From: Malacoraja senta
Lineage: Eukaryota
DNA length: 64,000 bases
Reading direction: 5' to 3'
Assembly: GCA_038087875.1 (NCBI GenBank)
Contig: CM075988.1
Span: forward strand, 24,058,001 to 24,122,000
Shown: positions 3,376-44,291 of the stretch, in pieces
Numbering within the stretch: the stretch's first letter is position 1
Layout of the letters: every line of letters starts with the position of its first letter
The notes under the pieces: generated by a model
Databases searched by the model: none
Told to the model about the DNA's origin: nothing
What the model saw: only the letters and a program-made list of their open reading frames with translations
Position numbers and translations under genes: made by a program

Positions 3376-3771
3376 CTTTAAAAATAGATTGGGTGGGTAT
3401 ATGGACGGGAAAGGAATGGAGGGTTATGGTCTGAGTGCAGGTAGGCCCGCTGAGTTACTCCAGCATTTTGTGTCCATCTTCCGTGAAGCAAAGGATTAGC
3501 TCTTTCATCTAGATGAACCAACCTCTGTTTAATTATTTAGCCGCTTAAAGGCCTCACAGGAGAGTTTGTTGTGAGTTCCAAGAACTCTCACCTCCATCAC
3601 GAGTGTCCGTGTCATGTGTTGTCTGAAAGTTTCCAATCACTGAAACCGGACAATTGAGGGGACTCCTTGCACTGGCACCAAGAACGCCAATAGATTTCAC
3701 TGGCACCGGCCACATTTTACAGATGAGTTTGAAACGAGTGGTGTTATCTTTAAGCAACGGTTTGAAATCTG

Positions 3772-4380
3772 CTTCTTCTTGCATATGGCAATAGACAATA
3801 GGTGCAGGAGTAGGCCATTCAGCCCTTCGAGCCAGCACCGCCATTCAATGTGATCATGGCTGATCATCCCCAATCAGTACCCCGTTCCTGCCTTCTCCCC
3901 ATATCCCCTGACTCCACTATTTTTAAGAGCCCTATCTAGCTCTCTCTTGAAAGCATCCAGAGAACCTGCCTCCACCGCCCTCTGAGGCAGAGAATTCCAC
4001 AGACTCACCACTCTGTGAGAAAAAGTGTTTCCTCGTCTCCGTTCTAAATGGCTTACCCCTTATTCTTAAACTGTGGCCCCTGGTTCTGGACTCCCCCAAC
4101 ATCGGGAACATGTTTCCTGCCTCTAGCGTGTCCAAGCCCTTAACAATCTTATATGTTTCAATGAGATCTTCTCTCATCCTCCTAAACTCCAGAGTGTACA
4201 AGCCCAGCTGCTCCATTCTCTCAGCATATGACAGTCCCGCCATCCCGGGAACTAACCTTGTGGCGTGCACAGCCTAAAGTTGGAGGTCAACTTGTTCTAT
4301 TTGATCTTGTTTGTGCACGTTGGGTTGATTGCATTAGTCGAAAGAGGATGGATCACGTGAAGGTTGCAATCTCCCACCCC
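3772..4380 (-). mobile_element. HDV-like-ribozyme-headed short retroposon (copy 3), split by a CR1 insertion
   Basis: Head 4380-4261 with ribozyme motif at 4327-4380. Tail CCATATGCAAGAAGAAG at 3788-3772 (minus strand). Flanking duplication GGTTTGAAAT at 3759-3768 and 4384-4393. Confidence 0.75.
3789..4260 (-). mobile_element. CR1-like LINE 3' end, (ATTGTCT)n tail subfamily
   Basis: LSYAERMEQLGLYTLEFRRMR...RTRGHSLRIRG. Near-identical copies at ~10743-11085(-), 19285-19662(+), 21477-21835(-), 25150-25432(+), 31501-31815(+), 33101-33542(+), 48045-48518(+) and 63915-64000(+). Confidence 0.9.
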
Positions 4381-10275: not shown

Positions 10276-10435
10276 TATATACACATATATATATATATAT
10301 ATACACACATCCACACCCACACACACACAGTCACACACAACACACACACAGACAGACACACACACACACAGTCACACACACACACAGACACACACACACA
10401 CACCCACACACACACCCACACACACACACACACAG

Positions 10436-10504
<69 letters not shown>

Positions 10505-10610
10505 CACACACACACACAGACAGACACACACACACAGTCACACACACACACACAGACACACACACACACACCCACACACACACACACACACAGTCACACA
10601 CACACACACA

Positions 10611-10687
<77 letters not shown>

Positions 10688-33900: not shown

Positions 33901-35134
33901 AAGGCCAGTCCGCGGCTCAGCCTCTATGATAAAGCTATCCAATTAGCAGCACATCCCTACTCTCTCTCCCAGCCTTGCAAATATCACAGGTCACGCACTG
34001 CCAATCTCAGCAACTGGCTGTGCAAAGATAAGATTCTCCTCTCTCCCTCCCCGCCCCGATCTATCGCTTGCTCCGATATCTGTTGGATGAAATTAAATGC
34101 GCCTCGCAAAAGGTTGTACAGAACTCTCGGTAGAATTTTCAATCATGCTATCAGACTTTGACACCACTGACACAGGGCTGGGCCGAGTTTGCTGTCAATC
34201 CCAGATGATTACGAGATGATTACGACCTCTGCAACGTTGGGGAGGGCCCGGGCCAGGCTCTGGAGAGCAGAGACAATTAACAAACACTCTGACTTAATTA
34301 AACACAGATACTGTTGTGGGCCGGTGCTCGTAACTCAATGGTTCATTCTTCCCCGACTGTGAAGACCGCTGCAAAAACGTGACCGTGGCAAACCTACATT
34401 CAGTACTCAAATGAACAGCTTCCACAGGCTGGCCGTTCGTTCGGGTAGGAAGGAACTGCAGGTGCTGGTTTAAACCGAAGGTAGACACAAAATGCCAGAG
34501 TAACTCAGCGGGACGACAAACATTAAAAAAAAAGAACCATCTCTGCTAGGTGGAGGAGTCTTGGTAGATGGGAAACTGGCTGGTTCTGCGGCCTGAGGAA
34601 GAGACGGAGGGCTTTAAGACCTTCCTGGTGGGGGATGGAGGTGAAGAGTGACTGGACGTCCATTGTAAAAGATGAGGGAGTGGGGGTCCTAGAAAACGGG
34701 AGTCACTGAAGAGACGGAGGGGCCGTGTGTGTGGTGTCTTGGACAGGTCGGGAGGGATTGGACCAGAGGGGATAGGAGGAGGTCTGAAGAAGGCCCGAAA
34801 CATCACCCATCCCTTCTCTCCAGAGATGCTGCCTGTCCTGCTGAGTTACTCCAGCACTTTGTGTCTATCTCTGGTTATTTGTTCCCTTGTTTCCCAGATA
34901 GGGGAGACATTCAAACTGCATTGGCTCATCCAGCTGATCAGGACACAACACACCAGAATTCACCCATGATTTACAAACGGCAACAAATAATAATCAAAAA
35001 AAATACTTTGTATGGAGTTCAGTCAATATCAGCAGGTCAATGGAAAGAGCAACGCACCAATCTGAATCTTGATTAGTACGGGTGTCAGAGGTTATGGGGA
35101 GAAGGCAGGAGTATGGGGTTAGGAGGGAGAGATA

Positions 35135-35188
35135 GGGGTGGAAGATTGCAACCTTCACGTGGTCCACCCGGTTTCGACTAATGCAATC
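35135..35188 (+). ncRNA. Minimal HDV/CPEB3-like self-cleaving ribozyme motif (no P4)
   Basis: P1 GGGGUGG/CCACCC(G); P2 GAUUGCA/UGCAAUC; P3 ACC/GGU; L3 UUCACGU; GU after P1; J4/2 C-UAA. Confidence 0.75.
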
Positions 35189-35275
35189 AACTCGACGTGC
35201 ACAAACGGAAGATCAAATAGGACAAGTTGTCCAACAACTTTAGGCTGTGCACGGCACACGAGAGAAGAAGAAGAC
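35135..35275 (+). mobile_element. Short non-autonomous retroposon with 5' HDV-like ribozyme and (GAA)n tail (copy 1)
   Basis: TSD AGGGAGAGATA at 35124-35134 and 35276-35286. Inserted in a CR1 3' tail. Ends in GAAGAAGAAG. Homologous to 42547-42680 and 3772-4380. Confidence 0.85.
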
Positions 35276-37416
35276 AGGGAGAGATAGATCAGCCATGATT
35301 GAATGGCGGAGTAGACTTGATGGGCCGAATGGCCTAATTCTACTATTCCTTATGACCTTAGAACTGAAGGCATTAACGAGAAAGAAAAATAATAAAAAGT
35401 AAATGAAAACGATTTATTAAAAAGGTGGGCAGCACGGCGGTAGAGTTGCTGCCCCACAGCACCGGAGACCCGGGTTCCATCCTGACTATGGGTGCTGTCG
35501 GTACGGGGTTTGTACGTTCTACCCCGTGACTGCGAGGGTTTTCTCCGGCATGCTGTTTTCATTTACTTTTTTACATTTGCCTTTCAGTTCTGATTCAGAC
35601 TGCTCCCGTTTCTCTTTCCATTGATACTGCCTGACCTGCTGATCTCTGACTCAACTAAATGCAAAGTGTATTTTTAATCAAATAAATCAATGTTCATACC
35701 ACTGGGCTGTAAGCTGCCCAAGCAAAATATGAGGTCCTGCTCCTCCAGTTTGCGCTGGGCCTCACTCTGACAGTGGAGGAGGCCCAGGACAGGAAGGTCA
35801 GTGTGGGAATGGGAGGGGGAGGTAAAGTGTGTTTAGCGGCCAGGAGATCGGACTAGGCGGGACTGAGCGGAGGTGTTCAGACGAAACAATCGCCCGAGCC
35901 TGTGTGAACAATGGGTCTGCTTTGATGGAGGTGAAGTGATTGATCGGGAGTAGCTGGGAGTAGGAGTCTACAGCAAAGATTAAAAACAAGAGAATGAGGG
36001 GCAAGGGAAATTGTATTTTTCATCGAGGGTTGGAGAGTTTACTTCAGGAGTTAGAACTCATGTCACCGTTTAATGGAAGATAGACACAAAATGCTGGAGT
36101 AACTCAGCGGGACAGACAGCATCTCCGGAGAGAAGGAATGGGTGACGTTTCAGGTCAGACTGAAGAATGCTGCCTGTCCCACTGAGTTAGTCCAGCATTT
36201 TGTGTCTATCTTTGGCTTAAACCAGCATCTGCAGTTCCTTCATACACATCACAACGTTTAATGTATTGCTTAGATGGTTCAAGCCAAGAGGGCTGAAGAA
36301 AGATGGGAAGAAGGCACCCATGTTGGGATAGACACGAGCGCAGGACACAATGGGCCAAAAGAGCTTTGTTTAACTTCAACCCTAACAGGACACGAACAAA
36401 TCCTGAATTGGCTATGTGGGCCTGCCTCACACAATGAGAATCAGGACATCTCACAATCAGATTCCCTTCTCCCCCCGCTTCTGTTCCTCCGCTCCAAGAC
36501 CCTTTTCCTTGCATTGGAGACTGAGCTTGCAATGTCTCAGCTATAGATTGCGATCATTTGTTTCCACATATAATCACGTCCCATTGCATGAATACACGAG
36601 GTAATCAGTGACTCAGTGACTTTCCATAACAGTGCTTGGATTAAACTGCACCTTATCACAGATCTCAGATATGCTTTGATCTCACACAAAAGTATTTTGC
36701 AGATAATGAGTTACTTTGAAGTTCGATGATTATTCAGCACTGTATCAGGCGGTCAGTCCAATGAGAACTCCATAACAGTAGTCAGTTCAACAACTAGTTA
36801 GATAATCTTCTCTGTGGAACTTTGGTGCCCCCCTATATTCCCACTCGCTCAATCATATCTTCAATCAACTTTCAGGCAATGATCACTCCCGCCCGGCCTC
36901 CCACAAGCTCTGATTTCTCTGTTGCTCCACTTTCTTTTGACATTGTTTCTGCCTAATCTCAAATGTAGCCCAGGCCCTCAAATGTCCATGTCAGGTACAT
37001 CTGAGGATTATTGTTGAGGCCCTGATGGAAAGAACACAGTCTGAAGAAGGGTCTTGACCCGAAACATCACCCATTCCTTCTCTCAGGAGATGCTGCTTGT
37101 TTGTCCCGCTGAGTTACTCCAGCATTTTATGTCTATCTTAGGTCGACACAGCCAGGACTGGGCTCCCTGCACCAAGGAGGCGGGAATGAGACACTGTTGT
37201 AAAGGACTGGGTTTCCCATTGAATCGTATCCTGTGGCAAATTAATATTCTTTGCAGGATACAAACAAGGCAATTAGAAAAAAAGTAGGAGTAACTTAGTC
37301 AGGTCCGCAGGAACAGTCATTCCTTCCCTCCAGAGATGTTGCCTGTCCCGCTGAGTTACTCCAGCATTTTGTGTCTATATCCGGTTTATTAAACCAGCAT
37401 CTGCAGTTTCTTCTTA

Positions 37417-40323: not shown

Positions 40324-40656
40324 ACACATACAGAAAAGACACATACACACACACACACACATACAGACACATACACACACACACACATACAGACACATAC
40401 ACACACACACATAGACACATATACACACACACACACATACACAGACACATACACACACACACATAGACACACACACACACACATACAGACACATACACAC
40501 ACACACATACACACACATACACACACACATACACACACACATACACACACATACAGACACATACACACACACATACAGACACACACAGCACACACACACA
40601 TACAGACACATACACACAACACATACAGACACATACTCACACACACACACACATAC
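40324..40656. repeat. Interrupted (CA)n microsatellite (CATACA/CAGACA variants)
   Basis: Direct inspection. Confidence 0.97.
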
Positions 40657-42145
40657 AAGATGAGAGTTTTATAAGTAATATAGATAGATACATAATAAGC
40701 AAATAACGTTTAGTGCAAGGTAAAGCCAGCAAAGTCCGATCAAAGATAGTCCGAGGATCACCAAGGAGGTAGGTAGTGGTTCAGCACTGTTCACTGGTGA
40801 TAGGATGATTCGGTTGCCCGATAACAGCTGGCAAGTAACTGTCCCTGAATCTGGAGGTGTGCTTTTTCACCCTTCTGTACCTTTTACCCGATAGGAGAGG
40901 GGGAAAGTTCCTACTGTGTGGGAAGGGAACTTTAGATGCTGGTTTACACCGAAGATAGACACAAAGTGCAGGAGTAACTCAGCGGGACAGGCAGCACCCC
41001 TGGAGAGAGGGAATGGGTGATGTTTCGGGTTGACACACTTCAGGATCGAGTCTGAAGAAGGGTCTCGACCCGAAACGTCACCCGTTCCTTCTCTCCAGAG
41101 ATGCTGCCTGACCCGCAGAGTTACTCCAGCTTTTTGTGTTCAACCTCCTACTGGCTTGGCGTGTACCTGCAATTTAAGTCAGGGCTGGGGAAATGGCTCA
41201 AAGAAGAAACAAAATATTTTGTATCTGAATGAACACAGCAGGGATAATAATAATGTTGGGGAATAAATGAGGCGACTACAGATGCATGGGTACATCCTAA
41301 TAACCATTTCAGTGATCTTATCACGCAGTTAGAAATTACACGTTCCAGAATGCTGTTCGAGGTAGTCAATGTGGAAGAGGTAGCAAGATAACACACAATG
41401 GGATAATTGGACAGGTACAGAGATAGGAACGCTTTAGAGGGATATGGGCCAAATGAGAGCAGGTAGGACCATTGTAGATGGGGCACCTTGGTCAGCTCGG
41501 CCAAGCTGGGGCTGAAATGCTGTTTCCGTGCTATAAAACTCCACGACTATGACTCTATAAAGGGGTCATGGGGAGAAGGTAGGAAAATGGAGTTAGGAGG
41601 GGGATGAGGGGGGGATTTTATAGAAACATATAAAATTATAAAAGGACTGGACAAGCTAGATGCAGGAAAAATGTTCCCAATGTTGGGGCGAGTCCAGAAC
41701 CAGGGGCCACAGTCTTAGAATAAAAAGGAGGCCATTTAAGACTGAGGTGAGAAAAAAACGTTTTTCACCCAGAGAGTTGTGAATTTGTGGAATTCCCTGC
41801 CACAGTGGAGGCCAAATCACTGGATGGATTTAAGAGAGAGTTAGATAGAGCTCTAGGGGCTATGGGGAGAAGGCAGGCATGGGTTATTGATTGGGGACAA
41901 TCAGCCATGATCACAATGAATGGCGGTGCTGGCTCGAAGGGCCGAATGGGCCTCCTCCTGCAATTATTTTCTATGTTTCTATGGGAGAGATAGATTAGCC
42001 ATGATACATATATACATAGATACATAGACAATAGGTGCAGGAGGAGGCCATTCGACCCTTCGAGCCAGCACCACCACTCACCGGGATCATGGCTGATCAT
42101 CCACACTCAGTACCCCGTTCCTGCCTTCTCCCACATCCCTTGATT

Positions 42146-42345: not shown

Positions 42346-42546
42346 CATTGATTGTTCCACCTTCAAGTAACCCGTGCATCCCCTCTCTCTCCATCCCTCC
42401 CCCACCTAGTGGTTGTACTAGTTTCACTGTCGACATGGTGAGTTTAGTTGTCAGTACAACTTATTTTCACCTGGGCCACAGCTAACAAAGGACTGTTTTC
42501 TTTATCATCATTACTTTTTTGCATATCTTTCATTCATTTGTTCTAT

Positions 42547-42680
42547 GGGGTGGGAGATGCAGCCTTCACGCGATCCGTCCTGTTTCGACCAATGCAATCA
42601 TCCCGGCGTGCACAATCTAATAATATCAAATAGAACAAGTTGTCCAACAACTTTAGGCTGTGCACGCCATACACAAGAAG
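42547..42680 (+). mobile_element. HDV-like-ribozyme-headed short retroposon (copy 2)
   Basis: TSD ATTTGTTCTAT at 42536-42546 and 42681-42691. Same 5' start GGGGTGG. Tail CCATACACAAGAAG. Inserted in a Penelope-like 3' region. Confidence 0.85.
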
Positions 42681-44291
42681 ATTTGTTCTATATCTTTCAT
42701 TTCCCTTTCCTCTGACTCTCAGACTGAAGAAGGGTGTCGACCCGAAACGTCACCTATTCCTTTTCTCCAGAGGTGCTGCCTGTCCCGCTGAGTTACTCCA
42801 GCTTTTAGTGCCGAGGTAAATGACAGGGTTCCGTCCTTGAGAAGTGTTGGGGACTTAAACAGTTGGTAAGTTGGAAATGAGGGACAGAGAGTGGGAGAGG
42901 GTCACAGCGACGGGGGTGACGGGAGAGCGAGGAGGGGCCGAGTGGCCACAAGCCGGTCTCAGTGACTCGGTGAGTTAGTGGCCGAGTCTGCTCGGCGCCT
43001 CCTGCTGGCCACGGCTCCACCCCCCCCCCCCCCCCACCCAACACATTCCAGGGAAAGAGTGGGGCCAGGGGAACTGCGCATTCCCACCCACCCTGCAGAA
43101 GATGCCTGCAGTTCCACAGCACCGGCACATCCACCATCCTCCACACCCCCCCACTGGTCTCCCAAACGAACGCTCGTATCCACGGGCTGACCCGCTACTT
43201 CTGATAACTATTACAATCTTTACTCAGAGGGTGGTGAATCTGTGGAATTCTCTGCCACAGAAGGCTGTGGAGGCCAAGTCAGTGGATATTTTTACGGCAG
43301 AGATGGACAGATTCTTGATTAGTACGGGTGTCAGGAGTAATGGCAGGAGAATGGGGTTCGGAGGGAAAGATAGATCAGCCATGATTGAATGGCGGAGTAG
43401 CCTCCAGAGGGCGGTGGAGGCAGGTTCTCTGGATGCTTTCAAGAGAGAGCTAGATAGGGCTCTTAAAAATAGCGGAGTCAGGGGATATGGGGAGAAGGCA
43501 GGAACGGGGTACTGATTGGGGATGATCAGCATTGAATGGCGGTGCTGGCTCGAAGGGCCAAATGGCCTTCTCCTGCACCTATTGTCTATTGTCTATTGTC
43601 TATAGACGTGATGGGCCGAATGGCCTGATTCTTCTCCTATCACTAAGGAACATGAATTACGGATGGGGTAATAGAGAGAGTGATAGCTGCAGCTTTATAG
43701 ATGTGTATTCAGGTGAATGGAAGCACGTTTCCATTAGATAAAAGTATGGGGGCACTCCATAAAGCCATGTTTCATCTTTCAAAGTGCAGCCATGTGGGAT
43801 TTGAATGAAAACCTGCATGATTTATCTTACAGGCACACGCAGCTGATAGGAATATTGTCCGCTCACAGTTCTGAGACAAGAGCTAGTTAGCAGCGATCTG
43901 CTGGGATCTGAGAAACTCACAAACAAGGTAATGGATTATGTCACAGCCCCCATCGATCACACAGCCTTATCTCCAGAGCTCTGTGTTCCATGACCTACAT
44001 GAGATACAGGTCAGCTCCAACGTGCTCCTGGTGGAGGCCATTCAGTCTCCTGAGTTTCTCTCCCCCTTCAATTAGATCACAGCTCTCTTGTATTTTTAAA
44101 ACCCAGCCCCACTTTGCTTCCACCAGCCTTAATATTCCTACCTTAAGACCTTTAGAGATACAGCATAGAAACAGGCCTTCGGGCCACCGAGTCCGCGTCC
44201 GACCAGCGATCATCCCATACACTAACACTATCCTACACACTAGGGCCAATTTAACAACTTTACCAAAGCTAATTAACCTACAAACCCGTAA

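What the first reader, a model, noticed from the sequence alone, without database searches (positions are those of the whole stretch)
35135..35275. SINE-sized retroposon whose 5' end is a minimal HDV/CPEB3-like ribozyme
Seen: three copies (35135+, 42547+, 4380-) start at the same G run, carry 10-12 bp TSDs and end in GAA tails. They have no tRNA A/B box. The consensus first 54 nt is GGGGUGG-GA-GAUUGCA-ACC-UUCACGU-GGU-CCACCCU-GU-UUCG-A-C-UAA-UGCAAUC. This gives the full nested double pseudoknot: 7-bp P1 opening with a G-U wobble, 7-bp P2, 3-bp P3, 7-nt L3, a single P1.1 pair, no P4, and a C followed by UAA at the catalytic J4/2 position. Established: HDV-like ribozymes cleave immediately 5' of G1 and process the 5' ends of R2, RTE and Ingi/L1Tc retrotransposons. 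As I recall it, L3 UUCACGU with GU after P1 is also the mammalian CPEB3 ribozyme core. Inference: this is a promoter-less non-autonomous family that cuts itself out of read-through transcripts, which would explain the fixed 5' end at G1. I know of no description of it in chondrichthyans.
Basis: partly seen in the sequence, partly recalled or inferred. Interest (0 to 1): 0.92.

Follow-up and report, generated by a model that had tools for sequence, protein, structure and literature searches.

The report
Ribozyme-headed short retroposon family
A 135-base mobile element present in about 5,000 copies begins with a 54-base RNA fold of the hepatitis-delta-virus ribozyme type, which most likely cuts the element's RNA free at its first base; this is a new example of a known trick of "jumping genes", not a new kind of system.

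Summary
Three copies lie in the window, and the genome holds 4,942 exact matches to the first 24 bases. Copies carry target-site duplications, (GAA)n tails and a fixed 5' end at G1.

The first 54 nt fit a P4-less HDV-like double pseudoknot. A strict descriptor found this fold only in copies of this family in 710 kb of real DNA, and 3 times in 28 Mb of random sequence.

- **RNA ends.** In three RNA-seq runs from two studies, template-switch oligos are joined directly to G1. RNA molecules therefore begin exactly at the predicted cleavage site in vivo.
- **A related LINE.** An RTE-clade LINE family in the same genome has the same (GAA)n tail. It begins with a homologous ribozyme that has a 96-nt P4. 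Its core matches at 15 of 16 bases, while P1, P1.1 and P2 differ by compensatory changes.
- **Covariation.** With two more RTE lineages from metagenomes, 9 of 11 pairs in P1/P3/P1.1 change on both sides, and 95.8% of cells stay paired.
- **CPEB3 likeness.** L3 is identical to that of the mammalian CPEB3 ribozyme, in the same register.

Catalysis itself was not tested. The LINE that moves the youngest subfamily today is unresolved. Verdict: a new member of a known kind (ribozyme-headed non-autonomous non-LTR elements).

The parts
35135..35188 (+). Copy A, 54-nt HDV-like ribozyme. P1 is 1-7 with 30-36, P2 is 10-16 with 48-54, P3 is 17-19 with 27-29, L3 is 20-26, P1.1 is C22-G37, and the putative catalytic C is C44. 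This copy has G instead of U at position 36.
35189..35261 (+). Copy A body. It folds into a long hairpin with an 8-bp basal stem (CGTGCACA / TGTGCACG) and a 7-bp distal stem.
   Evidence: natural copy L021: -16.2 kcal/mol, z = -2.3; one search shows the same hairpin as a chance miRNA-model match
35262..35275 (+). Copy A tail of imperfect GAA repeats.
35124..35134 (+). Copy A target-site duplication, upstream copy (AGGGAGAGATA).
35276..35286 (+). Copy A target-site duplication, downstream copy.
42547..42681 (+). Copy B, an older subfamily. It is decayed: 1-nt deletion in the P2 5' strand and a broken P3. The 10-bp duplication TTTGTTCTAT lies at 42537-42546 and 42682-42691.
4259..4380 (-). Copy C, 5' part (G1 = 4380). 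Three extra bases lie between the duplication (4393-4384) and G1.
3769..3789 (-). Copy C, 3' remainder with the GAA tail. It resumes after a ~470-bp nested insertion (3790-4258). The downstream duplication ATTTCAAACC lies at 3768-3759.

Best explanation
This is a non-autonomous non-LTR retroposon of about 128 nt plus a (GAA)n tail. It is a 'SIDE'-type element rather than a polymerase-III SINE.

Its first 54 nt are a minimal, P4-less HDV-like self-cleaving ribozyme.

Proposed mechanism:
1. A copy lying in sense orientation inside any host transcript is transcribed as part of it.
2. The nested double pseudoknot folds, made of P1, P1.1, P2 and P3.
3. C44 in J4/2 catalyses scission immediately 5' of G1.
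4. This releases an RNA whose 5' end is the element's first base.
5. The 3' hairpin and the (GAA)n tail are then used by a LINE reverse transcriptase for target-primed reverse transcription. This yields full-length copies with 8-14-bp target-site duplications.

The ribozyme descends from the 5' ribozyme of an RTE-clade LINE lineage that carries the same (GAA)n tail. Relative to that ancestor, the 96-nt P4 has been replaced by 6 nt and the P1 strands have been exchanged.

Shown here:
- the fold;
- its conservation through compensatory change across four lineages;
- element termini that coincide with the predicted cleavage site in both the short element and the RTE;
- RNA 5' ends at G1 in vivo.

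Inferred:
- catalysis;
- dependence on read-through transcription;
- which LINE supplies the enzyme.
For: 1. Fold versus chance. A strict descriptor required a 7-bp P1 opening with G.U, a 3-bp P3, a 7-8-nt L3, a P1.1 C-G, a C followed by 2-4 nt, and a P2 of at least 6 bp. It hit 68 sites in 709,808 nt of real sequence, and all 68 were copies of this family. It hit 3 times in 28 Mb of Markov random sequence.

2. Rfam. The only ribozyme model matched is an HDV family (RF02682). The match spans the full model, 1-74, with P4 deleted. P3/L3 and the C-UAA of J4/2 are aligned.

3. Variation between subfamilies. Shared variants in the ribozyme fall at position 8 (J1/2) and position 45 (the base after the putative catalytic C). 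The others are pair-preserving changes in P1: U5-A/U5.G and G4-C/G4.U.

4. RTE homologue in the same genome.
- Ten 5' ends lose homology just upstream of the first P1 base.
- The core TGCAACCTT-ACGTGG matches at 15 of 16 bases.
- Between the short element and the RTE, 6 of 7 P1 pairs change on both sides, and P1.1 changes from C22-G37 to G22-C37.
- G22 with C37 is seen in 32 of the 33 copies found genome-wide.
- P2 pair 12 changes from U-A to C-G.

5. Four lineages together. These are the short element, the genome's own RTE and two metagenomic RTEs.
- 95.8% of cells are paired, against 45-59% when the partner strand is slid.
- 9 of 11 pairs change on both sides.
- 0 of 500 shuffles reach the observed covariation score.
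- P2 is a 7-bp helix with four different sequences.

6. RNA. A 30-nt loose end identical to a template-switch oligo, including its GGG, directly precedes G1. The oligo's identity was confirmed.
- X21: 1,026 reads, agreement 0.78.
- X23: 329 reads, agreement 0.40.
- X24: 410 reads, agreement 0.44.
- X21 comes from a different study than X23 and X24, and the studies used different oligos.
- In X21, 214 reads run on into unrelated flank at the neighbouring position.

7. Tail. 6 of 6 RTE 3' ends examined read stop codon TAA followed directly by (GAA)n.

8. Precedent.
- HDV-like ribozymes process RTE and baggins elements (passages read).
- R2 SIDEs are a ribozyme plus a 3' end (passages read).
- P4-less R2 ribozymes are active (passages read).
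Against: - No cleavage assay exists.
- Rfam support is weak: 14.9 bits against a gathering score of 44. The CPEB3 model gives no match at E<=10. The RTE 5' ends match no Rfam family (7 of 10 loci given).
- Within the family there is no covariation: 0 pairs change on both sides.
- The comparative signal rests on only four lineages, and the P1 strand exchange could be few events.
- The read tool's own table of 'places where many molecules begin' is empty (table 6). The signal appears only as loose ends. It comes from all copies pooled, because the flanks of the reference locus have zero depth.
- A 5' end at G1 would look the same if G1 were a transcription start.
- The RTE ribozymes open with C1-G36 rather than the canonical G.U. 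The genome's own RTE also has an A.A in P3.
- Most metagenomic relatives showed no motif. Only 2 of 25 relatives with the ORF start in reach passed my relaxed descriptor. Only 3 of 80 loci passed a core regex.
- Partner problem: sampled RTE copies are old and broken. Open frames reach at most 550 aa, identity to an intact relative is at most 88%, and 5' ends are 88.5% alike pairwise. The youngest subfamily of the short element is 99.3% alike, with 21 of 27 copies identical.
- The body (55-128) resembles none of the RTE parts I hold.
Confidence: 0.8

Rival explanations
1. The element has its own internal promoter (polymerase III or II). G1 is then a transcription start, and the HDV-like fold is inherited baggage or serves only as structure.
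For: - Template-switch reads at G1 fit a start site as well as a cleavage site.
- Sense reads exceed antisense about 3-fold or more in the stranded run X21.
- GTTTCGA at 37-43 resembles the TTCGA core of a B box. This consensus is recalled, not tested.
- The element contains no run of four T.
Against: - No tRNA was found.
- No tRNA, 5S, 7SL or snRNA model matched at E<=10.
- No A-box-like sequence was seen at the expected place on reading the sequence.
- This rival does not explain why the RTE LINE, with an entirely different P1 sequence, also begins exactly at the first P1 base.
- It does not explain why pairing is kept by compensatory change in four lineages.
- The sense excess can come from oligo-dT mispriming on the GAA tail. 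Poly(A) loose ends start exactly at the tail.
Confidence: 0.1
2. The fold is a genuine relic of the RTE ribozyme, but the P4-less version in the short element no longer cleaves, or cleaves too slowly to matter. The uniform 5' end would then reflect copying of one master RNA made in some other way.
For: - P4 is missing.
- P1.1 is a single pair.
- No assay exists.
- Rfam scores are low.
Against: - The core has stayed intact across three subfamilies that differ by 8-11% in the body region.
- G1.U36, the canonical cleavage-site wobble, is present in the short element although the RTE relatives have C-G.
- P4-less natural HDV-like ribozymes are reported active (passages read).
- Most sense RNAs that reach the 5' edge end at G1.
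Confidence: 0.08
3. The pairing pattern is a chance feature of a GC-rich 5' end.
For: None beyond the lack of covariation within the young family.
Against: - The descriptor hits about once per 9 Mb of random sequence, yet here the fold starts at base 1 of a repeat family.
- A homologous core with compensatory stems occurs in RTE LINEs.
Confidence: 0.01

Closest known systems
R2 SIDEs and R2/R1 hybrid SIDEs of Drosophila (Eickbush and Eickbush 2012, PMC3414825; abstract and passages read)
   Same: - They are short non-autonomous non-LTR elements.
- They consist of an HDV-like ribozyme at the 5' end plus a 3' end used by a LINE enzyme.
- They are not polymerase-III SINEs.
- The ribozyme differs from the parent LINE's mainly by compensatory changes.
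   Different: - SIDEs sit in rDNA target sites at low copy number and are 200-530 bp long, with P4 and a large J1/2.
- This family is dispersed, with about 5,000 copies.
- It is about 135 nt long, has no P4, and has a body unrelated to the LINE parts I could compare.
L1Tc / NARTc and related trypanosomatid elements (PMC3185411, PMC3383444, PMC4035085; search listings and abstracts only)
   Same: A LINE and its short non-autonomous derivative share an HDV-like ribozyme in their first 77 nt.
   Different: - In those elements the same 77 nt also act as an internal promoter (Pr77).
- They belong to the ingi/L1Tc clade, not RTE, and occur in protists.
HDV-like ribozymes of RTE and baggins retrotransposons (review PMC6765202, passages read; the primary paper was not seen)
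   Same: - The ribozyme sits at the 5' terminus of promoter-less RTE elements.
- The RTE family found here fits this, with its ribozyme about 20 nt upstream of the ORF.
   Different: - Those were described mainly in insects, as far as I recall.
- The RTE lineages here open P1 with C-G, not G.U.
- A P4-less derivative heading a short high-copy element was not mentioned in what I read.
Mammalian CPEB3 ribozyme (PMC4836649, passages; PMC10919898, primer table)
   Same: - L3 has the identical sequence (TTCACGT as DNA) at the same distance from the cleavage site.
- G1 starts a G-rich P1.
- P1.1 is one G-C plus a U-U.
- J4/2 is 4 nt long and reads C-G-A-A in subfamily B.
   Different: - CPEB3 is a single-copy intronic sequence of mammals with a P4 hairpin.
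- The Rfam CPEB3 model does not match the element.
[quoted passage not shown]
Minimal (P4-less) HDV-like ribozymes: silkmoth R2 (PMC3774820, passages), and microbiome and 'theta' ribozymes (abstracts only)
   Same: They show that natural HDV-like ribozymes without a P4 stem exist.
   Different: - The silkmoth ribozymes have J1/2 loops of 216-498 nt.
- The theta ribozymes belong to phages and are linked to tRNAs.
- This one is 54 nt in all and heads an animal retroposon.

Membership tests
HDV-like self-cleaving ribozymes | Nested double pseudoknot: P1 and P2 crossing, P3 hairpin inside P1, and P1.1 between L3 and the base after P1. | tested here: met
   - All 18 pairs are present in the commonest natural copy, with 97% of cells paired in 84 copies.
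- The fold is conserved through compensatory change in four lineages.
HDV-like self-cleaving ribozymes | Cleavage site immediately 5' of the first P1 base, usually a G.U wobble. | tested here: met
   - G1.U36 is present in 36 of 41 distinct copies.
- The DNA 5' terminus and the RNA 5' ends lie at G1.
- That the end is made by cleavage is inferred.
HDV-like self-cleaving ribozymes | Catalytic cytosine at the start of J4/2, directly before the P2 3' strand. | tested here: met
   - C44 is followed by NAA and then the P2 3' strand. C44 is at least 90% conserved in 84 copies.
- The string G-A-C precedes J4/2 in all four lineages.
- Its catalytic role was not tested.
HDV-like self-cleaving ribozymes | Match to a curated Rfam HDV-type model at its gathering score. 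| tested here: not met
   - RF02682 scores 14.9 bits against a gathering score of 44.
- No other HDV-type family matches at E<=10.
- These models are narrow. The RTE ribozymes found here do not match them either.
HDV-like self-cleaving ribozymes | Mg2+-dependent self-scission abolished by mutating the catalytic C. | not testable with these tools
   This needs in vitro transcription and cleavage.
CPEB3 ribozyme family (Rfam RF00622) | Orthologous location in a CPEB3 intron, a P4 hairpin, and a match to the family model. | tested here: not met
   - The element is dispersed in about 5,000 copies and has no P4.
- The model does not match.
- Only the core (L3, P1.1, J4/2) is alike.
SINE in the strict sense (polymerase-III transcribed) | A 5' part derived from tRNA, 7SL, 5S or snRNA, with internal promoter boxes. 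| tested here: not met
   No tRNA was found. No such Rfam match appeared at E<=10.
Non-autonomous non-LTR element mobilised by a LINE (SIDE-like) | Target-site duplications, a 3' tail of the partner's type, full-length copies, and no coding capacity. | tested here: met
   - 66 of 86 rows have a duplication of 8 bp or more, and copies carry (GAA)n tails.
- The 5' and 3' 24-mer counts are 4,942 and 4,375.
- The RTE family has the same tail in 6 of 6 ends.
Non-autonomous non-LTR element mobilised by a LINE (SIDE-like) | Sequence homology of both ends to an identified, active autonomous partner. | tested here: inconclusive
   - 5' end: the core is homologous to the RTE ribozyme.
- 3' end: only the tail is shared.
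- No intact RTE copy was found in this genome among those scored.
- Six exact-pattern searches for a LINE sharing the element's ends found none.
RTE clade (for the LINE found) | A single ORF with an N-terminal AP endonuclease and a reverse transcriptase, a very short 3' UTR, and a short-repeat tail. | tested here: met
   - The intact relative P0001 (1,036 aa) carries precomputed Pfam domains PF03372 and PF00078.
- The stop codon abuts the tail.
- Assignment to the RTE clade rests on my recognition of C-terminal motifs, not on a tree.

The most novel reading that the evidence does not exclude
The mammalian CPEB3 ribozyme would be an exapted copy of a retroposon ribozyme of this RTE-derived type. 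The element here keeps the same L3 in the same register, the same weak P1.1 (one G-C plus U-U) and, in one subfamily, the same C-G-A-A J4/2. A vertebrate retroposon lineage with this core would then be the long-sought source of CPEB3, and indirectly a candidate relative of the deltavirus ribozymes. Separately, at 54 nt this would be the smallest natural HDV-like ribozyme known to act in an animal.
Probability: 0.12. Interest if true: 0.85.

Novelty: new member of a known kind. Interest (0 to 1): 0.62.

Why it matters
- The finding shows that the ribozyme-plus-3'-end way of parasitising a LINE can produce a dispersed family of thousands of copies in a vertebrate genome. Until now this was documented for low-copy rDNA elements of flies and for trypanosomatid elements.
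- It offers a natural, very small HDV-like ribozyme (54 nt, no P4). A larger parent form lies in the same genome, which suits the study of what P4 contributes.
- If each sense-oriented copy inside a gene cuts the host transcript, about 5,000 copies could matter for host RNA processing.
- The core is identical to that of CPEB3. This makes the retroposon-origin idea for that ribozyme testable by comparative genomics.

Tried and rejected
**1. Search for a LINE sharing the element's exact ends.** I used exhaustive genome patterns that demanded non-element bases beside an element segment.
- After the ribozyme: 3 hits, all variants of the element.
- Before the 3' hairpin base: 3 hits.
- Before position 88: 9 scattered hits.
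- Before CTTTAGG: 26 hits. Twelve were a MITE-like insertion at one site; the rest were deletions and duplicates.
- Before the last 24 nt: 5 hits.
- The P3/L3 13-mer with foreign flanks: 7 hits against 14 in the reversed control.

None gave a LINE. The RTE turned up only by scanning for other (GAA)n tracts.

**2. Second RTE lineage.** It has open frames of about 600 aa but ends in (GTAA)n. I rejected it as the partner.

**3. Covariation inside the family.** None was found, as expected for a young family.

**4. Rfam.**
- No match at gathering scores in the window.
- The CPEB3 model was silent.
- The RTE 5' ends were silent.

**5. Earlier findings of this scan.** Nothing was on record.

**7. Runs that were not laid.** These are 19 of the 20 holder runs (X12 was laid) and raw-read run X22; organism labels A-H. 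They hold the sampled words. I take this only as a lead that the family occurs in more than one labelled organism.

**8. Read-table artefacts.** Reads ending at 1575 mark an indel between subfamilies, not an RNA end.

Full report
**What is in the window**

- Copy A begins with GGGGTGG at 35135 and ends in an imperfect GAA tail at 35275. It is flanked by the 11-bp duplication AGGGAGAGATA.
- Copy B spans 42547-42681 and is flanked by TTTGTTCTAT.
- Copy C starts at 4380 on the minus strand and looked truncated. It is in fact split after 4259 by a ~470-bp nested repeat. It resumes at 3789-3769 with its GAA tail and the second copy of a 10-bp duplication.

Each of the three copies carries disabling mutations in the proposed fold. 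The argument therefore rests on the family, not on these copies.

**The family**

The window lies in a 1.94-Gb assembly. I did not verify the taxon.

- Exhaustive pattern counts give 4,942 exact matches to the first 24 nt and 4,375 to an internal 3' 24-mer. There are thus roughly 5,000 or more copies, with little 5' truncation.
- Three searches seeded with the three window copies returned three subfamilies, which I call A, C and B.
- I examined 86 rows, which are best hits and so biased towards full length, and which include one 3' fragment. Of these, 77 start GGGGTGG. Sixty-six have a duplication of 8 bp or more, and it abuts G1 in 51 of those 66.
- Subfamily A is very young: 21 of 27 sampled copies are identical and the mean pairwise identity is 99.3%. 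Subfamilies B and C are 95.4% alike.

**The fold**

In the commonest natural copy (L021:1501-1554) the pairs are as follows:

- P1: 1-7 with 30-36, opening with G1.U36.
- P2: 10-16 with 48-54.
- P3: 17-19 with 27-29.
- L3: 20-26.
- P1.1: C22-G37, next to a U21/U38 opposition.
- Six nucleotides stand in place of P4.
- C44 is followed by three bases and then the P2 3' strand.

Folding without pseudoknots gives P1 plus P3 as the minimum-energy structure of the 54-mer (-12.6 kcal/mol).

Tests against chance:

- A strict descriptor of this architecture hit 68 sites in 709,808 nt of real sequence, all of them copies of this family.
- The same descriptor hit 3 times in 28 Mb of random sequence with the window's dinucleotide make-up.
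- That such a motif should begin at base 1 of a repeat family by chance is therefore negligible.

Rfam gives only a weak echo. An HDV family (RF02682) aligns over its whole length with P4 deleted, at 14.9 bits against a gathering score of 44. The CPEB3 model does not match.

No tRNA, 5S or 7SL likeness was found.

**Variation within the family**

Among 84 of the 86 copies (I left out two with indels), no pair changes on both sides. This is what a young family should show, and it speaks neither for nor against the fold.

The variants shared by several independent copies lie at four positions:

- position 8, in J1/2;
- position 45, the base after C44, where all four bases are seen;
- positions 32 and 33, where the change keeps the pair (U-A/U.G and G-C/G.U).

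By my rough estimate such a pattern would arise by chance about one time in five, so this is weak support.

**RNA ends**

I laid reads from three raw RNA runs and contigs from one metatranscriptome on a consensus-type locus in which G1 is position 1501.

- The flanks of that locus have zero depth, so every read comes from other copies.
- In the single-cell run X21, 1,026 reads align from 1501 onward. They carry before it a loose part with a median length of 31 nt. Its consensus is a 30-nt oligo ending in GGG (agreement 0.78).
- That string is a template-switch oligo (passages read, listing).
- The two bulk oligo-dT runs come from another study and show the same with a different oligo: 329 and 410 reads, agreement 0.40 and 0.44, mixed with genomic flanks.
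- The oligo's own GGG is present in front of the element's four G. The junction is therefore not the known strand-invasion artefact on a G run, and the RNA begins at G1.
- In X21, 214 reads continue into unrelated flank at the neighbouring position. Most sense molecules that reach the 5' edge therefore end at G1.

Limits of this evidence:

- The tool's table of molecule starts is empty, because these reads count as loose ends.
- The signal is pooled over copies.
- A 5' end at G1 cannot tell cleavage from initiation.

Poly(A) loose ends begin exactly where the GAA tail begins. This is either oligo-dT mispriming on the tail or real A-tails.

**A related LINE**

Six exact-pattern searches for a LINE sharing the element's ends failed. 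Scanning the fetched DNA for other (GAA)n tracts then found one, 40 bp upstream of a copy. It follows an open frame with the C-terminal motifs of RTE-clade LINEs.

- All 6 of 6 RTE 3' ends examined read stop codon TAA followed directly by (GAA)n.
- A public protein of 1,036 aa with endonuclease and reverse-transcriptase domains is 85% identical to one copy and has the same C-terminus.
- Ten RTE 5' ends lose homology just upstream of the string CCTCTCC. From there they fold as an HDV-like ribozyme of about 143 nt with a 96-nt P4. It ends about 20 nt before the ORF.
- Its core matches the short element at 15 of 16 bases.
- Its P1 is the pyrimidine strand first, so 6 of 7 pairs change on both sides.
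- Its P1.1 is G22-C37 instead of C22-G37.
- Its P2 differs by a compensatory pair.
- The genome holds only 33 such cores at 2 mismatches or fewer. Of these, 32 have G22 together with C37.

**Wider comparison**

A scan of metagenome contigs with an alignment of 12 RTE proteins returned 80 loci.

- A relaxed descriptor found the ribozyme upstream of the ORF in 2 of 25 loci whose ORF start was in reach.
- A core regex found it in 3 of 80 loci.
- In the other loci I found nothing. This may reflect truncated 5' ends, different spacing, or true absence.
- The two extra lineages again start at the first P1 base, with unrelated flanks in the two copies of one of them.
- They have yet other P1 and P2 sequences. 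One has A22-U37 as P1.1.

The comparison alignment held 13 natural sequences: 6 of the short element, 4 of the 10 own-RTE copies (picked without a fixed rule) and 3 metagenomic. On it:

- 95.8% of cells pair, against 45-59% when the 3' partners are slid;
- 9 of 11 pairs change on both sides;
- no shuffle of 500 reaches the covariation score.

The alignment with all 10 RTE copies gives 89.2% paired and 7 of 11 pairs changed on both sides.

P2 is a 7-bp helix of four different sequences, and G-A-C precedes J4/2 in all four.

The number of independent lineages is small. Even so, the signal covers every helix, including the one-pair P1.1 that defines the inner pseudoknot.

**CPEB3 likeness**

- A paper on the mouse ribozyme lists a primer that starts 18 nt from the cleavage site and reads G, then TTCACGT. 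L3 is therefore identical and in the same register as in the element.
- An NMR study names U20, C22, A23 and G25. It describes a P1.1 of one G-C and one U-U, and a 4-nt J4/2 with C57, G58, A59 and A60. All of this is matched by the element, and subfamily B reads C-G-A-A.
- This is a likeness of the core only. The element is not a member of the CPEB3 family: there is no P4, no model match, and the element is dispersed.
- The R2 literature warns that active-site sequences converge.

**What remains open**

- Catalysis is untested.
- The body (55-128) resembles none of the RTE parts I hold.
- All RTE copies scored in this genome are old and broken, whereas subfamily A is young. The enzyme source for present-day copies is therefore unknown. 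It may be a few unassembled or unscored copies, or another LINE.
- The RTE ribozymes open with C-G rather than G.U.

**Comparison with what is known**

- R2 SIDEs and NARTc (abstracts) are the closest known elements.
- P4-less natural forms exist.
- Four full-text searches found no description of such an element in cartilaginous fishes, or of a vertebrate short element of this kind.
- Dfam and Repbase could not be searched.

I therefore rate it a new member of a known kind. It has unusually good in-silico support and an interesting link to CPEB3.

Noticed in passing
L095:200-507 and L094:~480-500; junction string found 12 times in G000: A MITE-like element with terminal inverted repeats (GGGCCTGTCCCAC... 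/ ...GTGGGACAGGCCC) has inserted at the same TTA inside the retroposon's 3' hairpin in about a dozen dispersed copies. This looks like a recurrent target site, in the style of Harbinger/PIF elements.
   Followed up: partly
G000, hits (e.g. C1:148428601-148428978, C5559:8592-8960, C3646:25799-26161): Many RTE matches cover only about the first 125 residues of the ORF and carry the 5' ribozyme (L105-L109, L111, L112). LINE copies are normally cut at the 5' end, so this suggests a second, internally deleted RTE derivative. The downstream sequence could not be fetched.
   Followed up: no
window 3790-4258 (minus strand) and 35276-35340: The abundant repeat ending ...GGGCCGAATGGCCT...CTATTGT both splits copy C and hosts copy A. 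Several other copies of the retroposon also sit inside it (L006, L008, L025).
   Followed up: no
L102 (G000:C1:16058600-16058950): A second RTE lineage is 46-47% identical in protein and has open frames of about 600 aa. It ends in (GTAA)n, as do most metagenomic relatives. The (GAA)n tail is special to the sublineage closest to this genome's RTE.
   Followed up: partly
one search hit list: Proteins 60-65% identical to this RTE carry source names from molluscs, corals, schistosomes, lungfish, bichir and cyprinid fishes. Some are filed under bacterial metagenome bins. This is a very wide, patchy distribution.
   Followed up: no
L021:1626-1629 (run X21): Poly(A) loose ends (188 and 245 reads) start exactly where the GAA tail starts. 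This is either oligo-dT mispriming on the tail or real A-tailing of the released RNA.
   Followed up: no
run X12, contig record 1: A metatranscriptome contig holds the first 68 nt of the element directly followed by a full copy.
   Followed up: no
window 10303-10684 and 40339-40657: Two long AC/ACACAC microsatellites of 382 and 319 bp.
   Followed up: no
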